From positions 1-14,465 of the forward strand of contig JAJRYM010000156.1 in assembly GCA_024275775.1 (NCBI GenBank): a DNA stretch of 14,465 nt, written 5' to 3'. The DNA is from Nitrospirota bacterium. GTDB lineage: Bacteria; Nitrospinota_A; UBA7883; JACRGQ01. Both the position numbers and the translations under genes were made by a program. How positions within the stretch are numbered: position 1 is the first letter of the stretch; the number at the start of each line of letters is the position of its first letter. This document shows, in pieces, positions 5,533 through 14,465 of this stretch. The notes below the pieces were generated by a model that did not search any database, was not told where the DNA came from, and worked only from the letters and a program-made list of their open reading frames with translations.

Positions 5533-6645
5533 ATGGCGATAATGATGGAGGTAATCGAATGGACGGATCCATCTCCGGAAGACATGATTTCCCGCTATCC
5601 CGGAAGGGGTTCGGCCGATATAAAGCTCGGCGCACAGCTTATCGTACGGGAAACGCAGTCGGCCGTATTTTACCGCGATGGCAAGGCCTGCGATTCGTTC
5701 GGGCCGGGCAGACATACTCTTAAAACCGTAAACCTGCCGATAATCACTAAACTGTTCTCCGCACCGTGGGGCTTTGAAAGCATATTCAAGGCCACGGTCT
5801 ATTTTATAAATCACAAAACCTTCACGAACATGAAGTGGGGCACCAGAGATCCCGTGGCGTTCCGCGACCGTGAGCTGGGCCTTGTCCGATTGCGGGGCTT
5901 CGGCGTTTACAGCATGAAAGTAACCGAGCCTCTTCTCTTCATAAACCAGCTCGTCGGAAGGGAAGCCCAATACTCTACAGACCAGATAGGCGACTATTTA
6001 AGGGACATAATAATATGCAGGCTTAACGACCTTTTCGGCGAAAAGCTGGATACAATTCTCGATCTGCCGGCGCAATACAAGGAGCTCGCGGCCGAACTCA
6101 AGGATATTCTGCAGAAAGAGTTTGGCAAATACGGCATAACCCTGCTCGATTTCTACATATCTTCCATCACGCCGCCCGAAGAGGTGCAGAAGATGATAGA
6201 CGAAAGAAGCGGAATGGCGGCCGTAGAGAATCTGGATCAGTTTCTCAAGTTCAAGGTGGCGAAATCGATGGATGCCGGCGGAGGCGCCGTATCCGGCGGA
6301 GCCGCGGCCGGAATAGGCATGGGAGTAGGGATGATGATGCCGGGCTACATGAGCAAAGCGTTTGCCCCGGAGCAGAGGGACTTGGAAAAGGAGTCGATAC
6401 CTACGGTGCAATGCCCCGAATGTCTGGCACATACGCCGGAAAACAGCAGGTTTTGCTACCGGTGCGGGCACCAGATGACTGCGGCCAGCATGTGCCAGAA
6501 CTGTTCCAAGGTGGTGCCGGTGCATTCCAAATTCTGCATGAACTGCGGTCATAGCCTTTCGGAAAAGCCGCACTGTTCAAAATGCGATATCGATCTTCCG
6601 TCCGGCACAAAATTCTGCCCCGGTTGCGGGGAGAAAATAGGCTGA
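5533..6645 (+). CDS. SPFH/band-7 domain protein of the COG4260 'YdjI / putative virion core protein' type with three tandem C-terminal zinc ribbons
   Basis: The N-terminus (IEWTDPSPEDMISRYPGRG...GAQLIVRETQSAVFYRDGKACDSFGPGRHTL.T.NLP...KWGTRDP) matches the COG4260 SPFH family as I recall it. A Gly/Met-rich low-complexity linker lies at nt 6268-6351. Three CxxC-x9-11-CxxC units follow at nt ~6412-6642. A GGGAGG ribosome-binding site sits 7 nt upstream of the start. Confidence 0.88.
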   Translation: MAIMMEVIEWTDPSPEDMISRYPGRGSADIKLGAQLIVRETQSAVFYRDGKACDSFGPGRHTLKTVNLPIITKLFSAPWGFESIFKATVYFINHKTFTNMKWGTRDPVAFRDRELGLVRLRGFGVYSMKVTEPLLFINQLVGREAQYSTDQIGDYLRDIIICRLNDLFGEKLDTILDLPAQYKELAAELKDILQKEFGKYGITLLDFYISSITPPEEVQKMIDERSGMAAVENLDQFLKFKVAKSMDAGGGAVSGGAAAGIGMGVGMMMPGYMSKAFAPEQRDLEKESIPTVQCPECLAHTPENSRFCYRCGHQMTAASMCQNCSKVVPVHSKFCMNCGHSLSEKPHCSKCDIDLPSGTKFCPGCGEKIG

Positions 6646-6668
6646 AGCCTTTTTGAAAGAGGGGCGGT

Positions 6669-8069
6669 ATGCGAAACCCTCTGCTTGTATCAACCAAATG
6701 CCGCGAATGCGGCGCCCCGATAAGATACCCCGAAGGAGCCTACACGTTCAGATGCGGTTTCTGCTCGTCGGCGCTTAGAACCTCAACGGAGGGACGGGAA
6801 CTTAAATACATCATTCCCGTTAGGCTTTCCCGAAAAGACGTTCTTTTGAGCGTCAAGCGGTTAATAACAACGAACAGGAACGAATACGGCGGTTTGAAAA
6901 AAGTCAGGCATATCAGAAATATCTATAAACCGTTCTGGTACTTCAAAGGGATGGTCTACAGTGCTTGGGCGGAGGCGGGTAAAAACAAAGCCGAGCTACT
7001 GTCAAAACTGTGGTTTCATACTTTTCAGGCGAACACCGAACATATTCCATGGCTTTTTTCGCTCGGGATCAGCTCGGAAGTTCTTACGCTCGAACCTTAC
7101 GACAGCGACCGCTTCCGTGAAGAAGGAACAGTTCTGCCCGTAACTCTTAACAGGGAAGAAGCTGAAGAACAGGCGTTGCTAATAGCGGGAAGGAGCGCGA
7201 GGATAGCGGCTCCCAACGCCCCTTACTTCAGGAATTTCCTAATAGGCGAGCGGTTCTTCCTTCTATATTATCCGCTGGTGCAGGTTGTCTGTTCGGGAGA
7301 GGCCGGTTTGCAAACTCTCTATTTCGACGGCGTAACGGCTAAGTGTGTCGGTGGGGAGGAGGGGGGGAATGCTCTTACGGCGGGTCAAGAGGAAAATTAC
7401 CATATAAAATTTCTGGTGCACAGATGTAAAAACTGCGGGCATGATCTTCAGTCGGCCGATTTCGACCTGTTCTATTATTGCCGTCACTGTTTTCGCCTCT
7501 GGGAGCTGAAAGGGGACGACTATATTTCCCGCAAAGTCCGGATTATCGAACCGTCCGGCAAAGGGAAAACTTTTTACATCCCTTTCTGGCGGTTTGCTGT
7601 GGAAATCGACTCGCCCGGAACCGGAAACCATTTTGCAACGGTGGGGGATTTGAGCAGGTTCATGAAGATGGGCCGCCATCTTTTAAGAAACGAGAATCCC
7701 GATAGGCCGTTAAAGTTTTACATCCCTGCTGTCGTGGCGCGAAACGCCAGGGCTGTGATGAAACTGGCCACCCGGTTGAGCATGTTTCAGAAAGATGTTC
7801 CTCTTTCCGGTTTTTCCGAGTTCCCCTATGAAAATATCCTCAACGTGTCACTGCCTGAACAGGAGGCGGTGGAGATGCTCGAACCGCTTGTCTTCTCAGT
7901 CATAGGAAGGGCCGACCCGCAGGCGGTTTCTTTCTATAAGGATTTTCAAATTAAAACGATTGCAAGAGAGCTGATCTGGTATCCGTTTGAGGATAAGGGA
8001 GCTATGCTTGCGGATCATTATCACGATTATTATTTTCCAAGGAAATCACTCGATATCAGAGCTTTCTAG
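6669..8069 (+). CDS. Zinc-ribbon protein built from an internal tandem duplication (two units of [CxxC..CxxC ribbon + ~200-aa domain with a PFW(Y/R)F motif]). Its function is unknown. It is the likely partner of the upstream SPFH protein.
   Basis: It starts 23 nt after the SPFH gene, with GAGGGG as ribosome-binding site. Ribbon 1 is CRECGAP..x14..CGFC (nt ~6699-6770). Ribbon 2 is CKNCGH..x14..CRHC (nt 7425-7490). The halves carry matching motifs: YKPFWYF vs YIPFWRF, LNREEAEEQALLIAGR vs LPEQEAVEMLEPLVFSVIGR, and FLLYYPL vs LIWYPF. Confidence 0.8.
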   Translation: MRNPLLVSTKCRECGAPIRYPEGAYTFRCGFCSSALRTSTEGRELKYIIPVRLSRKDVLLSVKRLITTNRNEYGGLKKVRHIRNIYKPFWYFKGMVYSAWAEAGKNKAELLSKLWFHTFQANTEHIPWLFSLGISSEVLTLEPYDSDRFREEGTVLPVTLNREEAEEQALLIAGRSARIAAPNAPYFRNFLIGERFFLLYYPLVQVVCSGEAGLQTLYFDGVTAKCVGGEEGGNALTAGQEENYHIKFLVHRCKNCGHDLQSADFDLFYYCRHCFRLWELKGDDYISRKVRIIEPSGKGKTFYIPFWRFAVEIDSPGTGNHFATVGDLSRFMKMGRHLLRNENPDRPLKFYIPAVVARNARAVMKLATRLSMFQKDVPLSGFSEFPYENILNVSLPEQEAVEMLEPLVFSVIGRADPQAVSFYKDFQIKTIARELIWYPFEDKGAMLADHYHDYYFPRKSLDIRAF

Positions 8070-8932: not shown

Positions 8933-9808
8933 TTACTGAATGAGCCCGTACCGCCGGAGAATTTCCTCGAGTTTTGTCCTGTTGCCTTCCGCCATCGGCG
9001 AGAGCGGCAGGCGGAACTCTTCGTTTATCTTCCCCATAAGCGCCGCGGCGGTCTTTACCGGAATCGGGTTAGTTTCCAGAAACATCGCGTGGTGGAGCTC
9101 GCGCATTTCCATGTGCAGTTTAAGCGCCTCATCATGTTTGCCTGCGAAAAACAGGTTGTGCATCTCCGCCATTTTGCCGGGCAGAATGTTCGCCGTTACG
9201 GATATCGACCCACTGGACCCCACGGCAAGGAGAGGGTAATTGATAAAATCGTCTCCCGAAAGCAGAATAAAATCATCAGGGCAGAGGGCAAGCACGTCTA
9301 TCGCTTGGCCGACGGAGCCGGAAGCTTCCTTTATGCCGACTATGTTCGGATGCCCGGCAAGCCGTGCGACAGTTGCCGGCAGAACGTTCAGCGCTGTTCT
9401 GCCCGGAACGTTGTAGAGAATCTGCTGGATATCGGCGGAATCGGCTATCGTCATGTAATGGCGATACACTCCCTCCTGCGTCGGCTTGTTGTAATAGGGA
9501 GAAATCAAAAGCGCGCCGTCCGCTCCGAGGTCTTTTGCCGCGCGGGTAAGCGCTATGGCCTCGCTGGTGGAATTGCTTCCCGTCCCGGCTATGATTTTTA
9601 CCCGTCCGTTAGCGGTTTTTACCGAAATGTCAATCAGTTCCAGGTGTTCTTCGTGGTTCAGGGTGGCCGATTCCCCCGTTGAGCCGCACGGCACTATTCC
9701 CTGGGTTCCGTTTTCTATAAGCCACTCCAGATGGGCGGTGAACCGGCCTGCGTCGATTTTGCCGTTATCGAACGGCGTAACCGAGGCTACGATGGAACCT
9801 TTAAACAT
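8933..9808 (-). CDS. dapA: 4-hydroxy-tetrahydrodipicolinate synthase
   Basis: It shows full-length DapA colinearity: [26 protein letters not shown], the active-site Lys context GIKEASG, and [13 protein letters not shown] ribosome-binding site lies 9 nt upstream on the minus strand. Confidence 0.95.
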
Positions 9809-9834
9809 TTATGGTTTCTCCTGATAAAAACAGT

Positions 9835-9864
9835 AGTATAGTTTGCCTTATGGGGATTTCGCAA
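9835..9864 (-). promoter_or_regulatory. Candidate sigma70-type promoter for the dapA operon (minus strand: TTGCGA-N18-TATACT)
   Basis: Read on the minus strand, the -35 TTGCGA is the complement of 9859-9864. An 18-nt spacer follows. The -10 TATACT is the complement of 9835-9840. This puts the TSS about 18-25 nt upstream of the dapA ATG at 9808. Confidence 0.35.
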
Positions 9865-9942
9865 TGTTTTTCAGCTTGCGGGGTCTGCCGGAATTCTCTG
9901 AAAAAGTGCCATGTTGGCAGTATTCTAGCTTCATCAAACGAG

Positions 9943-10007
9943 AAAACGTAAAAAATAGCAGAAAATCGGCAAAAAATAGTCAAAAAGTTGCAAAAAAGTC
10001 CAAAAAA
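9943..10007. repeat. Helically phased A-tract array (7 A4-6 tracts at ~10-11-bp spacing), predicted intrinsically curved DNA in the dapA/efp divergent promoter region
   Basis: A-tracts start at 9943, 9950, 9962, 9971, 9982, 9992 and 10002. The units are degenerate GCAAAAAAT(A)G-type repeats, e.g. ggcAAAAAAtagtcAAAAAgttgcAAAAAAgtccAAAAAAtgc. Confidence 0.6.
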
Positions 10008-10016
10008 TGCTTCAAT
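9988..10016 (+). promoter_or_regulatory. Candidate sigma70-type promoter for efp-accBC (TTGCAA-N17-TTCAAT), embedded in the A-tract array that may act as an UP-like element
   Basis: TTGCAA at 9988-9993, then a 17-nt spacer, then TTCAAT at 10011-10016. The efp ATG follows about 35 nt downstream, with GAGGAG 5 nt before it. Confidence 0.35.
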
Positions 10017-10051
10017 TTGGCTAAAAGTAGATTTCCAGCAGAGGAGTTTTT

Positions 10052-10615
10052 ATGATTTCGATGAATGATTTGCACACCGGGCGTAAAATTGAGATAGACG
10101 GTGATATTTTTATAGTTACGAATTTTAAGCATACGAATCCCGGCAAGGGGCAGGCGTTCGTAAAAGTTAAGATAAAAAACCTGAAAACCGGCCAGGTGCT
10201 GGAAAAGACGTTCAAGGGCGGCGACTCAATCAAACTGCCGGATTTTGAAGACAAGGAGATGCAATATCTCTATAAGGATGAATCCGGCTATCACTTTATG
10301 GATACCAGCAATTATGAACAGACTTTCCTTACCGAGGAACAGCTGGGCGACAATGGAAAATTTTTGCAGGAAAACTCCAATGTGAAAGTCCTTTTGCATA
10401 ATGACGAGGTAATAGATATCCAACTTCCGATGCACGTGGTTCTGGAAGTCACGGAAACGGAGCCCGGATTCAAGGGCGATACTACAGGGGCCGCATCCAA
10501 GCCCGCCACGCTGGAGACCGGCGCGGTAATTCAGGTGCCTCTTTTTGTGAATCAGGGCGAGAAAGTAAAAGTTGATACCCGAACGGGTGAATATATTGAA
10601 AGAGCCAAAACCTGA
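10052..10615 (+). CDS. efp: Translation elongation factor P
   Basis: EF-P is colinear over the full 187 aa, including the conserved modification loop NPGKGQAFVKVK and the C-terminal OB domains. Confidence 0.95.
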   Translation: MISMNDLHTGRKIEIDGDIFIVTNFKHTNPGKGQAFVKVKIKNLKTGQVLEKTFKGGDSIKLPDFEDKEMQYLYKDESGYHFMDTSNYEQTFLTEEQLGDNGKFLQENSNVKVLLHNDEVIDIQLPMHVVLEVTETEPGFKGDTTGAASKPATLETGAVIQVPLFVNQGEKVKVDTRTGEYIERAKT

Positions 10616-10638: not shown

Positions 10639-11109
10639 ATGAAACTTGAAGAAATAAAGAAGCTTATAAAGCTTGTTGAAAAAAGCAAAATAAGCAAGCT
10701 TGAAATCGAGGAAAACGACCGGAAGATAAGCATTACGAAATCGGAGGTCGGTACGGCTATTGCTCCGCCCATGCCTTTCGCCGTTCCGCCGCCGCCGGTG
10801 GCTCCAGCCGCGCTGGCCGCGGAAGATGCCAAACCGGCAACAGCTCCGGCAGAGGGAACAGCAAAAAAATATCATGAAATAAAGAGCCCGATGGTGGGAA
10901 CTTTTTATCAGGCTCCGGCCGAGGACGCGGAACCTTTCGTCAAGATCGGCGATAATGTGGAAAAAGGGCAGACGCTTTGCATAATCGAGGCGATGAAACT
11001 CATGAACGAAATAGAGTCGGATGTTCGGGGCGAAGTGATTGAGATTCTTCCCGAAAACGGCGCGCCCATCGAATACGGCGAAGTTCTTGTGAAAATAGAT
11101 CCGGCCTAA
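10639..11109 (+). CDS. accB: Acetyl-CoA carboxylase biotin carboxyl carrier protein
   Basis: Biotinylation motif EAMKLMNEIE. A Pro/Ala-rich linker. N-terminal IKKLIKLVEKSKISKLEIEE. 156 aa. Confidence 0.93.
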   Translation: MKLEEIKKLIKLVEKSKISKLEIEENDRKISITKSEVGTAIAPPMPFAVPPPPVAPAALAAEDAKPATAPAEGTAKKYHEIKSPMVGTFYQAPAEDAEPFVKIGDNVEKGQTLCIIEAMKLMNEIESDVRGEVIEILPENGAPIEYGEVLVKIDPA

Positions 11110-11160
11110 AACCGTGAATTTACCACTCTTTTATTTGCCGCTTTTATAGGATTCGACACG

Positions 11161-12498
11161 GTGTTCAAAAAGGTTCTTATAGCCAACCGCGGCGAGATAG
11201 CCATGCGGATAATTCGCGCCTGCAAGGAGCTGGGTATAAGGTCGGTCGTGGCTCATTCGGAACCGGATGTAGATTCATTGCCGGTCAGATTCGCCGATCA
11301 GGCCGTTTGCATCGGCCCGAGGGAAGCCGCCAAAAGTTATCTTAATATTCCAGCGATTATATCCGCCGCGGAAGTAACTGATTGCGACGCCATTCATCCC
11401 GGGTACGGTTTTCTGTCCGAGAACGCCGGCTTCGCCGATATCTGCGAGTCGTGCAAGATTACCTTTATCGGGCCGTCGGTTAACAATATCCAGTTGATGG
11501 GAAACAAAGTTAAAGCTCGCGAGACAGCCGTGCAGGCTGGTGTTCCCGTTGTGCCGGGGAGCGACGGAGCGATTACGGACGATACGGATGCCGTAAACAC
11601 CGCCAGGGAAATCGGTTTTCCGGTAATGCTGAAAGCCGCCGCCGGGGGTGGCGGCAAAGGTATGCGAGTCGTGCATGATGAGGACGAGCTTCTTGACTCG
11701 CTCAATCTCGTGCGTGCGGAAGCCATGGCCGCTTTCGGAAGCGGCGTCGTATATCTTGAAAAATTCATAGCCGAGCCGAGGCATATCGAGGTGCAGGTGA
11801 TGGGAGACAAACATGGAAACGTGGTGCATATGTTTGAAAGGGACTGTTCCATTCAGCGCCGGCATCAGAAAATCATCGAGGAAGCCCCATCGGCAGGCCT
11901 GGGCGAAGATATCCGCAGGGAGATGGGCGAGATGGCCATAAAACTTGTGAAACATATCGGCTATTACACGGCGGGAACCATCGAGTTCCTTCTGGACGGA
12001 GATAAGAACTTTTATTTTATGGAGATGAATACCCGCTTGCAGGTTGAGCATCCGGTGACGGAAATGGTAATCGGTTTAGACATCGTGAAAGAGCAGATAA
12101 AAACCGCCGCAGGCAGGGAGCTTGGAATCAGCCAGGAGGATATCAAGCTGGACGGCCACAGCATCGAATGCCGGGTAAACGCTGAAGATCCGGAAAACTT
12201 TCTTCCTTCGAGCGGAAAAGTCGAGGAAATCTATTTCCCCGGCGGGCCTGGCGTTAGGGTGGATACGGCTCTGTTTGCCGGGTATGTTGTTACGCCTTTC
12301 TACGATTCCCTTATAGCTAAAGTCATCGTGAAATCCCGCACCCGTCAGGAGGCGATTGCCAGAATGAGGCGGGCGCTGGGAGAGTTCCATATAACCGGCA
12401 TAAAAACCACCATCCCGATTTTGTATCGGATACTTCATTCGGAGCAGTTTGTGGCTGGAAACCTGACTACGCGGTTTCTGGAAGAATTTATGGAATGA
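11161..12498 (+). CDS. accC: Acetyl-CoA carboxylase biotin carboxylase subunit
   Basis: GTG start. N-terminus KVLIANRGEIAMRIIRACKELGI. It matches AccC throughout (ATP-grasp region, HIEVQ..D..GNVVH, EMNTRLQVEHPVTE). Confidence 0.95.
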   Translation: MFKKVLIANRGEIAMRIIRACKELGIRSVVAHSEPDVDSLPVRFADQAVCIGPREAAKSYLNIPAIISAAEVTDCDAIHPGYGFLSENAGFADICESCKITFIGPSVNNIQLMGNKVKARETAVQAGVPVVPGSDGAITDDTDAVNTAREIGFPVMLKAAAGGGGKGMRVVHDEDELLDSLNLVRAEAMAAFGSGVVYLEKFIAEPRHIEVQVMGDKHGNVVHMFERDCSIQRRHQKIIEEAPSAGLGEDIRREMGEMAIKLVKHIGYYTAGTIEFLLDGDKNFYFMEMNTRLQVEHPVTEMVIGLDIVKEQIKTAAGRELGISQEDIKLDGHSIECRVNAEDPENFLPSSGKVEEIYFPGGPGVRVDTALFAGYVVTPFYDSLIAKVIVKSRTRQEAIARMRRALGEFHITGIKTTIPILYRILHSEQFVAGNLTTRFLEEFME

Positions 12499-13967
12499 GC
12501 GAAAAGCGCGAGTTTTTTTCTTCCCGGTGGGGCCTGCTGGCGGCGTCTCTGGGATGCGCCATAGGCGTCGGCAATATATGGCGATTTCCGAGGATGGCGG
12601 CGGAAAACGGCGGCGGCGCTTTTCTTCTGCCGTGGCTGATTTTTCTTTTCGCGTGGTCAATTCCGCTGATAATCGCGGAATATTCTCTCGGCAGAAAAAC
12701 GAGGGAAGGCGTGGTTGGTACCTTCGCGAGTTTCGGAAGAAAAAACAGGGCGTGGATGGGCGCTTTCATAGCGTTCGTCGCGTCGTCGGTTCTTTTCTAT
12801 TACGCGGTGATAGCGGGCTGGTGTTTTTATTATTTTTTCGAGTCTTTAGGCGGGGCTTTCGTAGCGATGAATCCGGGCGAAGCAAAAACCTTTTTTATCG
12901 CCTTTACCGGCGCTCCTGAAAAAACGTTCCTTTTCATGCTGTTGCCGCTTCTTATATGCGGCGGGGTTCTTTTCGGCGGGGGAGTTAAGGGAATAGAGCG
13001 AATGAACTCCATAATGATTCCACTGCTCTTCGTGCTTATGATAATAGCCGCCGTTTACGCATGCAGTCTGCCGGGCGCTATGAAAGGAGTGGAATATCTT
13101 TTCATACCGCGATGGGAGTTTCTGGCAAAATCCGAAACATGGATAAAGGCGCTCGGCCAGTCGGCATGGTCCACGGGCGCGGGGTTCGGCCTTTTCCTTA
13201 CCTACGCCGTTTATGTGAAAGAGGAGGAAGATATAGTCGCCAACTCCATCTTCACCGCCGTAGGCAATAACATCGCCTCGGTTATCGCCGCGCTCTCGGT
13301 GATACCTACGGTCTTCGCCTTCATGCCCGAAGCCGAGGCTACGGCCTCGCTTCAGTCCGGGTCGATAGGTCTTACTTTCTTCACGCTACCGGAACTGTTC
13401 AGTCAGATGCCGATGGGCAGAATTTTTGCGGCTCTCTTTTTTCTTACGCTTATTTTCGCGGCTCTCAGCTCGATGATTTCCCTTGTGGAGCTTCCTGTAA
13501 GAGTGGTGATGGATTTTGGCGTACCCCGGCGGAAGGCCGTTATCATAGTTGTGGCGGTTGCTATTGCTTTGGGTCTGCCTTCGGCGCTGAGTCTCGATTT
13601 TCTGGACAATCAGGATTTCGTATGGGGGCAGGGGCTGATCATCTCCGGCTTTCTTTTCGCTGTTCTGCTCATAAAATACGGCGCGGAACGGTTCCGCCAC
13701 GAGCTTCTTAATACTCAAAGCGGGCTTCATGTGGGAAGCTGGTTCGATAAGGCGATAACCTATTTGATTCCTCTGGAATTCGCCGCGCTGATGATATGGT
13801 GGTTCGTCGAAACCATAAACAGCGAACCGAACTGGTGGAAACTTACCGCCCCGAAAAGTCTTGGAACCTGTCTGCTTCAATGGGGTATAGCTTTTGCGGT
13901 GTTCTATCTTCTTAACGGGTTTCTTAAGAAAAAGATCGCTTCGCAGGAAGAGATGGAACAATCGTAA
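12495..13967 (+). CDS. Neurotransmitter:sodium symporter (NSS/SNF) family transporter
   Basis: NSS signature GVGNIWRFP...NGGGAFLLPW and a 12-TM hydrophobicity pattern. Its start overlaps the accC stop in an ATGA junction. Confidence 0.92.
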   Translation: MSEKREFFSSRWGLLAASLGCAIGVGNIWRFPRMAAENGGGAFLLPWLIFLFAWSIPLIIAEYSLGRKTREGVVGTFASFGRKNRAWMGAFIAFVASSVLFYYAVIAGWCFYYFFESLGGAFVAMNPGEAKTFFIAFTGAPEKTFLFMLLPLLICGGVLFGGGVKGIERMNSIMIPLLFVLMIIAAVYACSLPGAMKGVEYLFIPRWEFLAKSETWIKALGQSAWSTGAGFGLFLTYAVYVKEEEDIVANSIFTAVGNNIASVIAALSVIPTVFAFMPEAEATASLQSGSIGLTFFTLPELFSQMPMGRIFAALFFLTLIFAALSSMISLVELPVRVVMDFGVPRRKAVIIVVAVAIALGLPSALSLDFLDNQDFVWGQGLIISGFLFAVLLIKYGAERFRHELLNTQSGLHVGSWFDKAITYLIPLEFAALMIWWFVETINSEPNWWKLTAPKSLGTCLLQWGIAFAVFYLLNGFLKKKIASQEEMEQS

Positions 13968-14096
13968 AATGGCTGTTTGTTTTCGGTAAAAGCAACCCGG
14001 CTGAAGGGGTTTCGCAAAAACAGCCGATTGTTTAAAAGTTCTGCGAGCTGAATCGATAAAAGTGTAAAATATCCTTTCGATTTTCAGGAGGGAACA

Positions 14097-14465
14097 TTGG
14101 ATTACTTTGAATACAAGAACGGCTCTCTTTACTGCGAGGAAGTGCCGCTTGAAAAAATAGCCGAAGAGGTTGGGACGCCTTTCTACTGCTATAGCCAGCG
14201 GACTCTTGTGCGCCATGTAAGGGTGTTCGACGAAGCTTTCAGCGGGATTGAGCATCTTGCCTGTTTCGCCGTTAAAGCCAATTCAAACCTCGCCGTACTG
14301 CACGAGCTCATAACCGCCGGCGCTGGTTGCGATACTGTGTCCGGTGGGGAGATTTACCGCGCACTGAAGGCTGGATGCAGTCCGCAAAAAATCGTTTACG
14401 CCGGAGTCGGCAAAACGATCGAGGAAATCGAGTACGCCCTTGAACAGGGTATCCTTATGTTTAAC
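14097..14465 (+). CDS. lysA: Diaminopimelate decarboxylase, 5' portion. The gene runs off the window's 3' edge.
   Basis: TTG start with AGGAGGG 4 nt upstream. The N-terminus LYCEEVPLEKIAEEVGTPFYCYSQ..L..H...F.......HLACFAVKANSNLAVL is the typical fold-type III PLP decarboxylase (LysA) opening. There is no stop codon before the window end. Confidence 0.8.
   Translation, partial: MDYFEYKNGSLYCEEVPLEKIAEEVGTPFYCYSQRTLVRHVRVFDEAFSGIEHLACFAVKANSNLAVLHELITAGAGCDTVSGGEIYRALKAGCSPQKIVYAGVGKTIEEIEYALEQGILMFN

What the first reader, a model, noticed from the sequence alone, without database searches (positions are those of the whole stretch)
9943..10007. Phased A-tract array predicting strongly curved DNA between the divergent dapA and efp promoters
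Seven A4-A6 tracts recur every 9-12 bp, in phase with the helical repeat. They are built from degenerate GCAAAAAAT-like units and lie immediately upstream of, and overlapping, the candidate efp -35. This is the classic architecture of intrinsically bent, UP-element-like DNA that enhances transcription of translation-factor genes. It could equally be a binding array for a nucleoid protein (Fis, IHF or H-NS-like). It is the only clearly non-coding repetitive structure in the window.
Basis: seen in the sequence. Interest (0 to 1): 0.5.

Follow-up and report, generated by a model that had tools for sequence, protein, structure and literature searches.

The report
Curved A-tract array in efp promoter
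A run of seven helically phased A-tracts is built into the predicted promoter of the efp-accBC operon and is predicted to bend the DNA strongly around RNA polymerase; its register is conserved in uncultured Nitrospinota-like relatives, but it is a well-known kind of promoter architecture, not a new one.

Summary
Seven A4-A6 tracts lie at 9943-10007 with centre spacings of 8-11 bp. No other place in the 14.5-kb window has 5 or more same-strand tracts within 65 bp.

My wedge-model calculations make it the top curvature peak of the window: about 105-147 degrees over 63 bp, about twice the next peak. It was reached by 0/1000 dinucleotide shuffles and by 0-2/1000 re-dealings of the spacer lengths.

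Five relatives (EF-P 72-90% identical, nearest named ones Nitrospinota MAGs) carry the tracts at the same positions relative to a conserved TTGCAA -35 hexamer, with no indels. The bases between tracts have drifted (37% pairwise identity against 85% in tract columns).

The array stays next to efp when dapA is not the neighbour, so it belongs to the efp promoter. Two tracts lie inside the -35/-10 spacer and five lie at -37 to -80.

It does not match the E. coli UP-element consensus in register (2-4 of 15 positions). The models put the -35 major groove on the concave side.

Best reading: a promoter-integrated, pre-bent upstream element that aids RNA polymerase binding. I found no support for an IHF site, a sigma-54 promoter, an RNA leader or coding sequence.

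Verdict: a new member of a known kind. Function is untested.

The parts
9943..10007 (+). Phased A-tract array of seven tracts. With the -35 hexamer numbered -35..-30 (TSS about 10023): 9943-46 (-80..-77), 9950-55 (-73..-68), 9962-65 (-61..-58), 9971-76 (-52..-47), 9982-86 (-41..-37), 9992-97 (-31..-26), 10002-07 (-21..-16).
   Evidence: sequence, tract list, period-10 repeat. (top curvature peak; shuffles). (same tract positions in L081, L082, L083, L085, L086).
9988..9993 (+). Predicted efp -35 hexamer TTGCAA.
   Evidence: Conserved as TTGCAA or TTGCAT in all six close species, pairwise identity 0.94. TTGCA columns are invariant in MAFFT alignment A1. This is a prediction; no TSS data exist.
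10008..10017 (+). Predicted extended -10 region TGcTTCAATt. The hexamer is TTCAAT (10011-10016, 17-bp spacer) or TCAATT (10012-10017, 18-bp spacer).
   Evidence: Conserved block, consensus aTGcTTaAAT. G10009, T10012 and A10015 are invariant. Relatives read TAAATT, TAGAAT or TAAAAT at the 18-bp register. The window copy lacks A at -11 in either register, so the strict scan did not list it.
10023..10026 (+). Predicted transcription start (about 10023, give or take 1) and a further A4 tract 20 bp (about two helical turns) downstream of the last array tract.
   Evidence: Inferred from the hexamer positions. The tract is listed. It is present as A5 in L081 only. Weak evidence.
10040..10046 (+). Ribosome-binding site AGAGGAG, 5 nt before the efp ATG.
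   Evidence: Read directly. Conserved GGAG-type motif in the relatives.
10052..10615 (+). efp (elongation factor P, 187 aa), first gene of the unit served by the promoter.
   Evidence: Pfam EFP_N, EFP and Elong-fact-P_C.
10639..13967 (+). Downstream co-directional genes: accB (10639-11109), accC (11161-12498) and an SNF-family transporter gene (12495-13967, start overlaps the accC stop). Probably the same operon.
   Evidence: Pfam. Synteny is conserved in L082, L083, L085, L086. Operon status is inferred from spacing only.
9835..9864 (-). Separate, compact dapA promoter candidate TTGCGA-18 bp-TATACT. It lies 79-143 bp from the array and is not part of the element.
   Evidence: Promoter scan. 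TATACT and TTGCnn are conserved in L081, L082, L085, L086 by eye.

Best explanation
The array is a cis-acting structural part of the sigma-70-type promoter of the efp-accB-accC(-SNF) unit.

Anatomy: five A-tracts at -37 to -80 and two inside the -35/-10 spacer repeat once per helical turn. Their small bends therefore add up to roughly 100-150 degrees, with a radius of about 70-135 A.

The tracts flank the -35 hexamer symmetrically, with centres at -39 and -28.5. As a result the major groove that sigma region 4 reads faces the inside of the curve, and the upstream DNA is pre-bent towards the polymerase.

Inferred mechanism:
- The pre-bend lowers the cost of wrapping upstream DNA around RNA polymerase.
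- It also offers narrow minor grooves to the alpha C-terminal domains or other polymerase surfaces.
- Both effects would raise polymerase recruitment or isomerisation at a promoter whose -10 element is weak (no A at -11).

Shown here: the tracts, their phasing, the predicted curvature, their conserved register with the promoter hexamers, and their association with efp.

Inferred only: the promoter assignment, the activating direction of the effect, and the polymerase contacts.
For: Curvature:
- Top curvature peak of the window under two parameter tables.
- The code behaves correctly on synthetic in-phase versus out-of-phase arrays, and 0-2 of 1000 shuffles reach the observed value.

Conservation:
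- In all 11 lineage loci (EF-P identity 56-100%) the region 59-85 bp upstream of the efp ATG is the top curvature peak of its locus, at 84-153 degrees.
- In 78 distant efp loci the upstream peak averages 72 degrees with a maximum of 115.
- Anchored on the -35 hexamer and without gaps, the tracts fall at -21/-16, -31/-26, -41/-37, -52/-47, -61/-57, -72/-68 and -80/-76 in six species.
- Tract columns are 85% identical pairwise and inter-tract columns 37%.
- L085 has T-tracts at two of the same positions, which fits shape readout better than base readout.

Association with efp:
- The array stays next to efp when dapA is absent (L083/84) or 640 bp away (L086).

Geometry:
- In three models and six species, the major groove at the centre of the -35 hexamer points within about 0-53 degrees of the centre of curvature.

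Literature:
- Upstream phased A-tracts activate bacterial promoters through the alpha subunit, and polymerase wraps upstream DNA (Aiyar 1998, Ellinger 1994 and Rivetti 1999, as cited in PMC4081817).
Against: - There are no transcript, expression or gel data. The TSS and the hexamers are predictions.
- The window's -10 lacks the near-universal A at -11 in either register, and the strict promoter scan did not call this promoter.
- In-register match to the E. coli UP consensus is only 2-4 of 15.
- In the models, the minor grooves at the canonical alpha-CTD positions -43 and -53 face outwards. The alpha-CTD part of the mechanism is therefore uncertain.
- Ellinger 1994 (cited in PMC4081817) showed that upstream A-tracts can inhibit as well as stimulate, so the sign of the effect is not established.
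- The wedge-angle tables were entered from memory. Absolute angles are approximate, although a roll-only model gives the same direction.
- I could not examine other promoters of this lineage, so specificity to efp rests on about 67 kb of sequence.
Confidence: 0.7

Rival explanations
1. The array is a binding array for a nucleoid-associated or regulatory protein (IHF/HU-like, H-NS-like or an unknown factor). That protein would coat or bend the A-tract DNA to repress or activate efp, and the curvature would only be a by-product of the binding sites.
For: A/T-rich curved DNA is a known preferred substrate of several nucleoid proteins (general knowledge). There is one 1-mismatch match to the IHF consensus at 9978-9990. 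A C often precedes each tract, giving GC-AAAAA units.
Against: The IHF-like match takes its TTG from the -35 hexamer, has 2 or more mismatches in the relatives, and the window holds fewer such matches than chance (6 against 12 expected). Inter-tract bases are only 37% identical and L085 swaps A-tracts for T-tracts, which argues against base-specific sites. The exact register with the -35 hexamer points to polymerase as the partner. From general knowledge, Fis and H-NS proper are largely proteobacterial, whereas the nearest named relatives here are Nitrospinota.
Confidence: 0.12
2. The array is a shared element of the divergent dapA and efp promoters. For example, it could be a curved spacer or a supercoiling buffer that couples or insulates the two transcription units.
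For: It lies in the 243-bp dapA-efp intergenic region. The divergent arrangement is conserved in L082, L085 and L086.
Against: The array is retained unchanged next to efp in L083/L084, where the upstream neighbour is a co-directional unrelated gene. It is also retained in L127-L133 with other neighbours. The dapA promoter candidate is compact, separately conserved and 79 bp or more away. The distance from dapA to the array varies from about 130 to more than 500 bp, while the distance from the array to the efp -35 is fixed.
Confidence: 0.06
3. The array is transcribed from a promoter further upstream and acts as an A-rich RNA leader, for example a translational enhancer or a site for an A-rich-RNA-binding protein.
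For: A sigma-54-like motif, TGGCAG-N5-TAGCT, lies at 9915-9930 just upstream. In L083 the upstream gene is co-directional, so read-through transcripts could include the array.
Against: The sigma-54-like match is at chance level (7 found, 5.0 expected) and is not conserved beyond the 90% relative. There is no Rfam hit even at E<=1. The RNA fold is not distinguishable from shuffles (z = -1.6). The 10-10.5 bp period and the fixed register with conserved -35/-10-like hexamers are DNA-helix properties with no obvious meaning in RNA.
Confidence: 0.05
4. The array is a neutral product of tandem duplication or slippage of a 10-11 bp (or 21 bp) A-rich unit in AT-rich intergenic DNA and has no function.
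For: TRF finds period-10 and period-21 repeat structure at 70-82% match. The intergenic region is AT-rich (GC 0.35-0.37 against about 0.55 in the flanks).
Against: Tract positions are retained without indels in six species, while inter-tract bases have diverged to 37% identity. Every one of 11 lineage loci has its top curvature peak there. Re-dealing the spacer lengths almost never reproduces the curvature.
Confidence: 0.05

Closest known systems
Phased upstream A-tracts acting as UP-element-like activators of sigma-70 promoters (Aiyar, Gourse and Ross 1998; Ellinger et al. 1994; both cited in PMC4081817)
   Same: A4-A6 tracts repeat once per helical turn directly upstream of a -35 hexamer, on one face of the helix. 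They sit upstream of a gene expected to be highly expressed.
   Different: There are five upstream tracts reaching -80, plus two inside the spacer. The tract positions sit about 4 bp closer to the promoter than the canonical subsites. Alpha-CTD dependence is untested. The host is an uncultured Nitrospinota-like lineage.
Canonical UP element of E. coli rrn P1 promoters (consensus -59 NNAAAWWTWTTTTNNAAAANNN -38, Estrem 1998, as quoted in PMC5664571)
   Same: An A/T-rich element between -38 and -59. The tract at -52..-47 coincides with the distal T-tract position.
   Different: In-register consensus match is only 2-4 of 15, and the best match needs a 4-bp shift. The element consists of discrete tracts separated by G/C-rich spacers, not a continuous A/T block.
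[quoted passage not shown]
   Same: The A-tract periodicity runs through the core promoter, not just upstream of it, and is locked to the promoter elements.
   Different: Those are genome-wide statistical tendencies. Here it is one very strong single-locus array with a clear -35 hexamer. No other array was seen in about 67 kb of lineage sequence.
Helicobacter pylori sabA T-tract 'rheostat' next to the -35 (PMC4081817)
   Same: [quoted passage not shown]
   Different: sabA uses one long, length-variable repeat (13-18 T) that changes by slippage. Here the tracts are short and their lengths and spacing are conserved between species.
Kinetoplast minicircle bent DNA, CA5-6T tracts at 10-bp intervals (from my own knowledge: Marini 1982; Wu and Crothers 1984)
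   Same: Very similar sequence style: C-A5-6-T/G tracts every 10-11 bp, the textbook intrinsically curved DNA.
   Different: An unrelated biological context with no promoter attached. The resemblance is physical only, and I recalled it from memory rather than testing it.

Membership tests
Intrinsically curved phased A-tract DNA | At least 3-4 A/T tracts of 4 bp or more on one strand, without TpA interruptions | tested here: met
   Seven A4-A6 tracts at 9943-10007.
Intrinsically curved phased A-tract DNA | Tract spacing equal to the helical repeat (10-11 bp), so that the bends add up | tested here: met
   Centre spacings are 8, 11, 10, 10.5, 10.5, 10 bp. R/n = 0.94 at period 10.2. Spacer re-dealing reaches the observed curvature in 0-2 of 1000 trials.
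Intrinsically curved phased A-tract DNA | Predicted curvature well above the background sequence | tested here: met
   147 or 105 degrees per 63 bp against a window mean of 25 or 19 and next peaks of 78 or 56. 0/1000 dinucleotide shuffles reach it. The parameter tables were entered from memory.
Intrinsically curved phased A-tract DNA | Anomalously slow, temperature-dependent gel migration | not testable with these tools
   This needs polyacrylamide gel electrophoresis of the fragment at low and high temperature.
UP element (alpha-CTD-binding upstream promoter element) | A/T-rich element located between about -38 and -59 of a sigma-70-type promoter | tested here: met
   Tracts lie at -41..-37, -52..-47 and -61..-58 relative to the conserved TTGCAA hexamer. 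The promoter itself is a prediction.
UP element (alpha-CTD-binding upstream promoter element) | Match to the consensus -59 NNAAAWWTWTTTTNNAAAANNN -38 or its subsites (proximal A-tract -44..-41; distal -57..-47) | tested here: not met
   2-4 of 15 specified positions match in register in six species. The best score, 9-11 of 15, needs a 4-bp shift. Consensus as quoted in PMC5664571.
UP element (alpha-CTD-binding upstream promoter element) | Stimulation depends on the alpha C-terminal domain, and alpha protects the element | not testable with these tools
   This needs in vitro transcription or footprinting with wild-type and alpha-CTD-deleted polymerase.
IHF binding site | WATCAANNNNTTR core, conserved among relatives | tested here: not met
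   There is one 1-mismatch match at 9978-9990, whose TTG is the -35 hexamer. The window holds 6 matches against 12 expected by chance. The relatives have 2 or more mismatches at that position.
Sequence-specific repeat array (iteron or operator-like) | Repeat units conserved in base sequence, including the non-A positions | tested here: not met
   Inter-tract columns are 37% identical pairwise against 85% for tract columns. In L085 there is an A-to-T strand swap at two tract positions.
Sigma-54 promoter upstream of the array | TGGCAC-N5-TTGCW above chance and conserved | tested here: not met
   The match at 9915-9930 has 2 mismatches. There are 7 such matches in the window against 5.0 expected. 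It is not conserved in L082-L086.
Known structured RNA (Rfam) | Covariance-model match | tested here: not met
   No match at gathering thresholds over the window. No match at E<=1 over 9780-10120.

The most novel reading that the evidence does not exclude
In this uncultured Nitrospinota-like clade the efp-accBC promoter may use an A-tract superstructure of about 85-100 bp (-80 to about +4). It runs through the -35/-10 spacer and is locked to both hexamers. Its tracts are about 4 bp out of register with the canonical alpha-CTD subsites and it wraps towards the sigma-4 face. On this reading it is a distinct promoter design that compensates for a -10 lacking A-11. Because A-tract curvature melts with temperature and responds to supercoiling, it could also act as a protein-free physical sensor that tunes a translation factor and fatty-acid synthesis together.
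Probability: 0.15. Interest if true: 0.55.

Novelty: new member of a known kind. Interest (0 to 1): 0.3.

Why it matters
Helically phased A-tracts upstream of bacterial promoters have been known since the 1980s, so the class is not new.

What this case adds is an unusually clean natural example:
- It has seven tracts and a predicted bend of 100-150 degrees.
- Comparison across species separates selection on tract position (kept to the base pair relative to the -35) from the drift of everything between the tracts.
- It occurs in a poorly studied phylum-level lineage with no promoter data.

It gives a usable promoter model (TTGCAA, 17-18 bp, TG-n-T(T/A)NAAT) for annotating these MAGs. It is also a good substrate for asking whether curvature or wrapping, as opposed to canonical alpha-CTD docking, drives activation, because the tracts are out of register with the E. 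coli UP subsites.

If the array turned out to be temperature- or supercoiling-responsive, it would link EF-P and acetyl-CoA carboxylase expression to physical DNA state.

Tried and rejected
1. The genome-contig scan with EF-P returned only distant relatives (56% identity or less, mostly Firmicutes). It was useless for conservation, but I reused those loci as a control set.

2. The metagenome scan with the promoter-core pattern TTGCAAAAANNNNNNAAAAATGNTTNAAT gave 39 hits. All were unrelated AT-rich sequences or a repeated palindromic element from one sample, and none had an upstream phased array or efp downstream. It therefore says nothing about whether this promoter style is general in the lineage.

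3. Sigma-54 promoter at 9915-9930: chance level and not conserved.

4. IHF site: rejected.

5. RNA element: no Rfam match and a fold z-score of -1.6.

6. Coding: the mechanical ORF 9843-10055 is open only in the window. Every frame through the array is interrupted in at least two of the six species.

7. Naming the source organism: the window's EF-P cluster carries no name. Only the relatives at 72% identity or less are labelled Nitrospinota.

8. The primary papers (Aiyar 1998, PMC24504; Estrem 1999, PMC316962) are not held, so I cite them through papers that quote them.

9. A review (PMC2613000) and PMC6501063 did not give the consensus text. PMC5664571 did.

Full report
**Observation**

The window carries dapA (8933-9808, minus strand) and efp (10052-10615, plus strand), followed by accB, accC and an SNF-family transporter gene (Pfam). 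The 243-bp intergenic region drops to about 35-37% G+C, against about 55% in the flanks.

Within it, A-runs lie at 9943-46, 9950-55, 9962-65, 9971-76, 9982-86, 9992-97 and 10002-07. Centre-to-centre spacings are 8, 11, 10, 10.5, 10.5 and 10 bp. No other place in the 14,465 bases has five or more same-strand A4+ tracts within 65 bp. Tandem Repeats Finder reports period-10 and period-21 structure there.

**Is it more than chance?**

I wrote a wedge-model trajectory calculation using two parameter tables entered from memory (Bolshoy-Trifonov and a simple AA wedge). I checked it on synthetic DNA: period 10-11 arrays give 76-157 degrees per 63 bp, and period 15-16 arrays give 17-32 degrees.

| Test | Bolshoy-Trifonov | AA wedge |
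|---|---|---|
| Array, degrees per 63 bp | 147 | 105 |
| Next peak in the window | 78 | 56 |
| Dinucleotide shuffles reaching it (whole intergenic region, or array alone) | 0/1000 | 0/1000 |
| Tracts kept, spacer lengths re-dealt | 2/1000 | 0/1000 |

The phasing itself, not just the A-richness, is therefore non-random.

**Relatives**

The genome collection held nothing closer than 56% EF-P identity. The protein database gave relatives at 90, 78, 75, 73, 72, 66, 65, 64, 62 and 56% identity, and the named ones are Nitrospinota MAGs. I fetched their DNA.

All of them have an A/T-tract-rich region directly upstream of efp. In all 11 lineage loci that region is the single highest curvature peak of the locus, at 84-153 degrees, and in the 10 distinct loci re-examined it is 1.1-2.1 times the runner-up.

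In 78 distant efp loci the upstream region is often curved too: it is the locus maximum in 31-44% of them. The curvature is weaker, though, with a mean of 72 and a maximum of 115 degrees. So curved DNA upstream of efp is common, and this lineage is an extreme case.

**Anatomy**

The six closest sequences share TTGCA(A/T), then 17-18 bp, then a -10-like block with consensus aTGcTTaAAT. Anchored on the -35 hexamer with no gaps, the tracts occupy the same positions in every species: -21/-16, -31/-26, -41/-37, -52/-47, -61/-57, -72/-68 and -80/-76. A few tracts are missing in L082 and L086.

MAFFT independently gives an essentially gap-free alignment. Its invariant columns are almost entirely tract A's, TTGCA, the G of TG, and two -10 positions.

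Tract columns are 85% identical pairwise and inter-tract columns only 37%. L085 carries T-tracts where the others carry A-tracts, at -60/-57 and -71/-68. This is the signature of selection on tract position, meaning shape and helical phase relative to the promoter, and not on base sequence.

Two of the seven tracts therefore lie inside the -35/-10 spacer, and five lie upstream.

The array belongs to efp. It is retained next to efp where the upstream gene is not dapA (L083/84; L127-L133) and where dapA is 640 bp away (L086). dapA has its own compact, conserved TTGCnn-17/18-TATACT promoter candidate.

**Caveat on the core promoter**

The -10 register is ambiguous by 1 bp: TTCAAT with a 17-bp spacer, or TCAATT with an 18-bp spacer. 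In the window and in L083 neither register supplies the usual A at -11, whereas L081, L082, L085 and L086 read TAAATT, TAAATT, TAGAAT and TAAAAT. For this reason the strict scan did not list the promoter.

The assignment rests on conservation, not on transcript data. A weak -10 would make upstream contacts more important, but that is inference.

**Mechanism**

Published work establishes three relevant points:
- Upstream phased A-tracts can raise promoter activity through the alpha subunit.
- They can also inhibit, depending on the rate-limiting step.
- Polymerase wraps upstream DNA.

These come from Aiyar 1998, Ellinger 1994 and Rivetti 1999, as cited in PMC4081817. [quoted passage not shown]

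Tested against the UP consensus quoted in PMC5664571, the array matches only 2-4 of 15 positions in register, and matches best after a 4-bp shift. It should not be filed as a canonical UP element.

A geometric calculation with three models and six species shows that the major groove at the centre of the -35 hexamer faces the centre of curvature to within about 0-53 degrees, with a radius of about 70-170 A. The grooves facing inwards at -39 and -49.5 are the tract minor grooves, and those at the canonical -43 and -53 positions face outwards.

My best reading is a pre-bent promoter whose upstream DNA curls towards the polymerase bound at the -35. This would favour wrapping and possibly non-canonical alpha-CTD contacts. 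The direction of the effect (activation) and the contacts are inferred.

**Rivals**

| Rival | Result |
|---|---|
| IHF site | One 1-mismatch match that borrows its TTG from the -35; not conserved; fewer matches in the window than chance |
| Sigma-54 promoter at 9915-9930 | Chance level and not conserved |
| RNA leader | No Rfam match even at E<=1; fold z = -1.6 |
| Coding sequence | Every frame through the array is interrupted in at least two of the six species |
| Neutral repeat expansion | Contradicted by indel-free conservation of tract positions while inter-tract bases drift |
| Shared dapA/efp element | Contradicted by the loci that lack dapA |

**What did not help**

The metagenome pattern scan returned only unrelated AT-rich sequences. 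I could not reach other promoters of the same genomes. Whether this is a lineage-wide strong-promoter style or an efp-specific device therefore remains open. Within about 67 kb of lineage sequence it is unique to efp.

**Verdict**

The element is a strongly supported, conserved example of a known architecture: phased A-tract curved DNA integrated with a sigma-70-type promoter. It is a new member of a known kind, of modest interest, and its function is untested.

Noticed in passing
window 9908-9920: A perfect 5+3+5 palindrome, TGCCA-TGT-TGGCA, lies between the dapA and efp promoter candidates. The scan flagged it as a terminator-like hairpin on the minus strand. It overlaps the chance-level sigma-54-like motif and is not preserved in the 90% relative L081. 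It could be an operator or could be chance.
   Followed up: partly
window 12495-13967, and L082, L083, L085, L086, L128, L131: An SNF-family (sodium:neurotransmitter symporter) gene starts 4 bp before the accC stop codon. It follows efp-accB-accC in all close relatives. In L128 and L131 it follows efp directly, with no accBC between. This is a conserved and unexplained efp-transporter linkage.
   Followed up: no
L088, L089, L091, L092, L096, L101, L110, L123, L124 (all from metagenome Ga0209679): At least nine contigs from one metagenome carry a near-identical element of about 70 bp, GGTTACATGTAAAAtAAAACAT-TTGCAAAAATGTTGTAAAAATGTTTTAAT-GTTTTATTTTACATGTAACC, with inverted-repeat ends. It looks like a dispersed palindromic repeat or a miniature mobile element and is unrelated to the window.
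   Followed up: no
L001-L080 (distant efp loci, mostly Firmicutes MAGs): In 31-44% of 78 distant efp loci the highest predicted curvature of the locus (about 6.5 kb) lies within 150 bp upstream of efp, and in about 65% it is above the 99th percentile. Curved upstream DNA may be a general trait of efp promoters, or simply of AT-rich promoter regions. I ran no control with other genes.
   Followed up: partly
window 5533-8069: An SPFH/Band-7 protein with C-terminal double zinc ribbons (5533-6645) is followed by a 466-aa protein (6669-8069). The second protein's only Pfam signal is a sub-threshold HypA-like zinc-ribbon match at its N-terminus. This is an uncharacterised gene pair.
   Followed up: no
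window 13386-14255 (minus strand): A 289-aa ORF with no Pfam match overlaps the 3' end of the SNF transporter gene by about 580 bp. Its true start is probably further downstream, or it is spurious.
   Followed up: no
L086 and L087, about 2440-2570: The unusually long (640-bp) dapA-efp intergenic region of the 72% relative holds a second predicted curvature peak of 103 degrees near 2503, and in L087 a called 43-aa ORF at 2544-2675. I did not examine its content.
   Followed up: no
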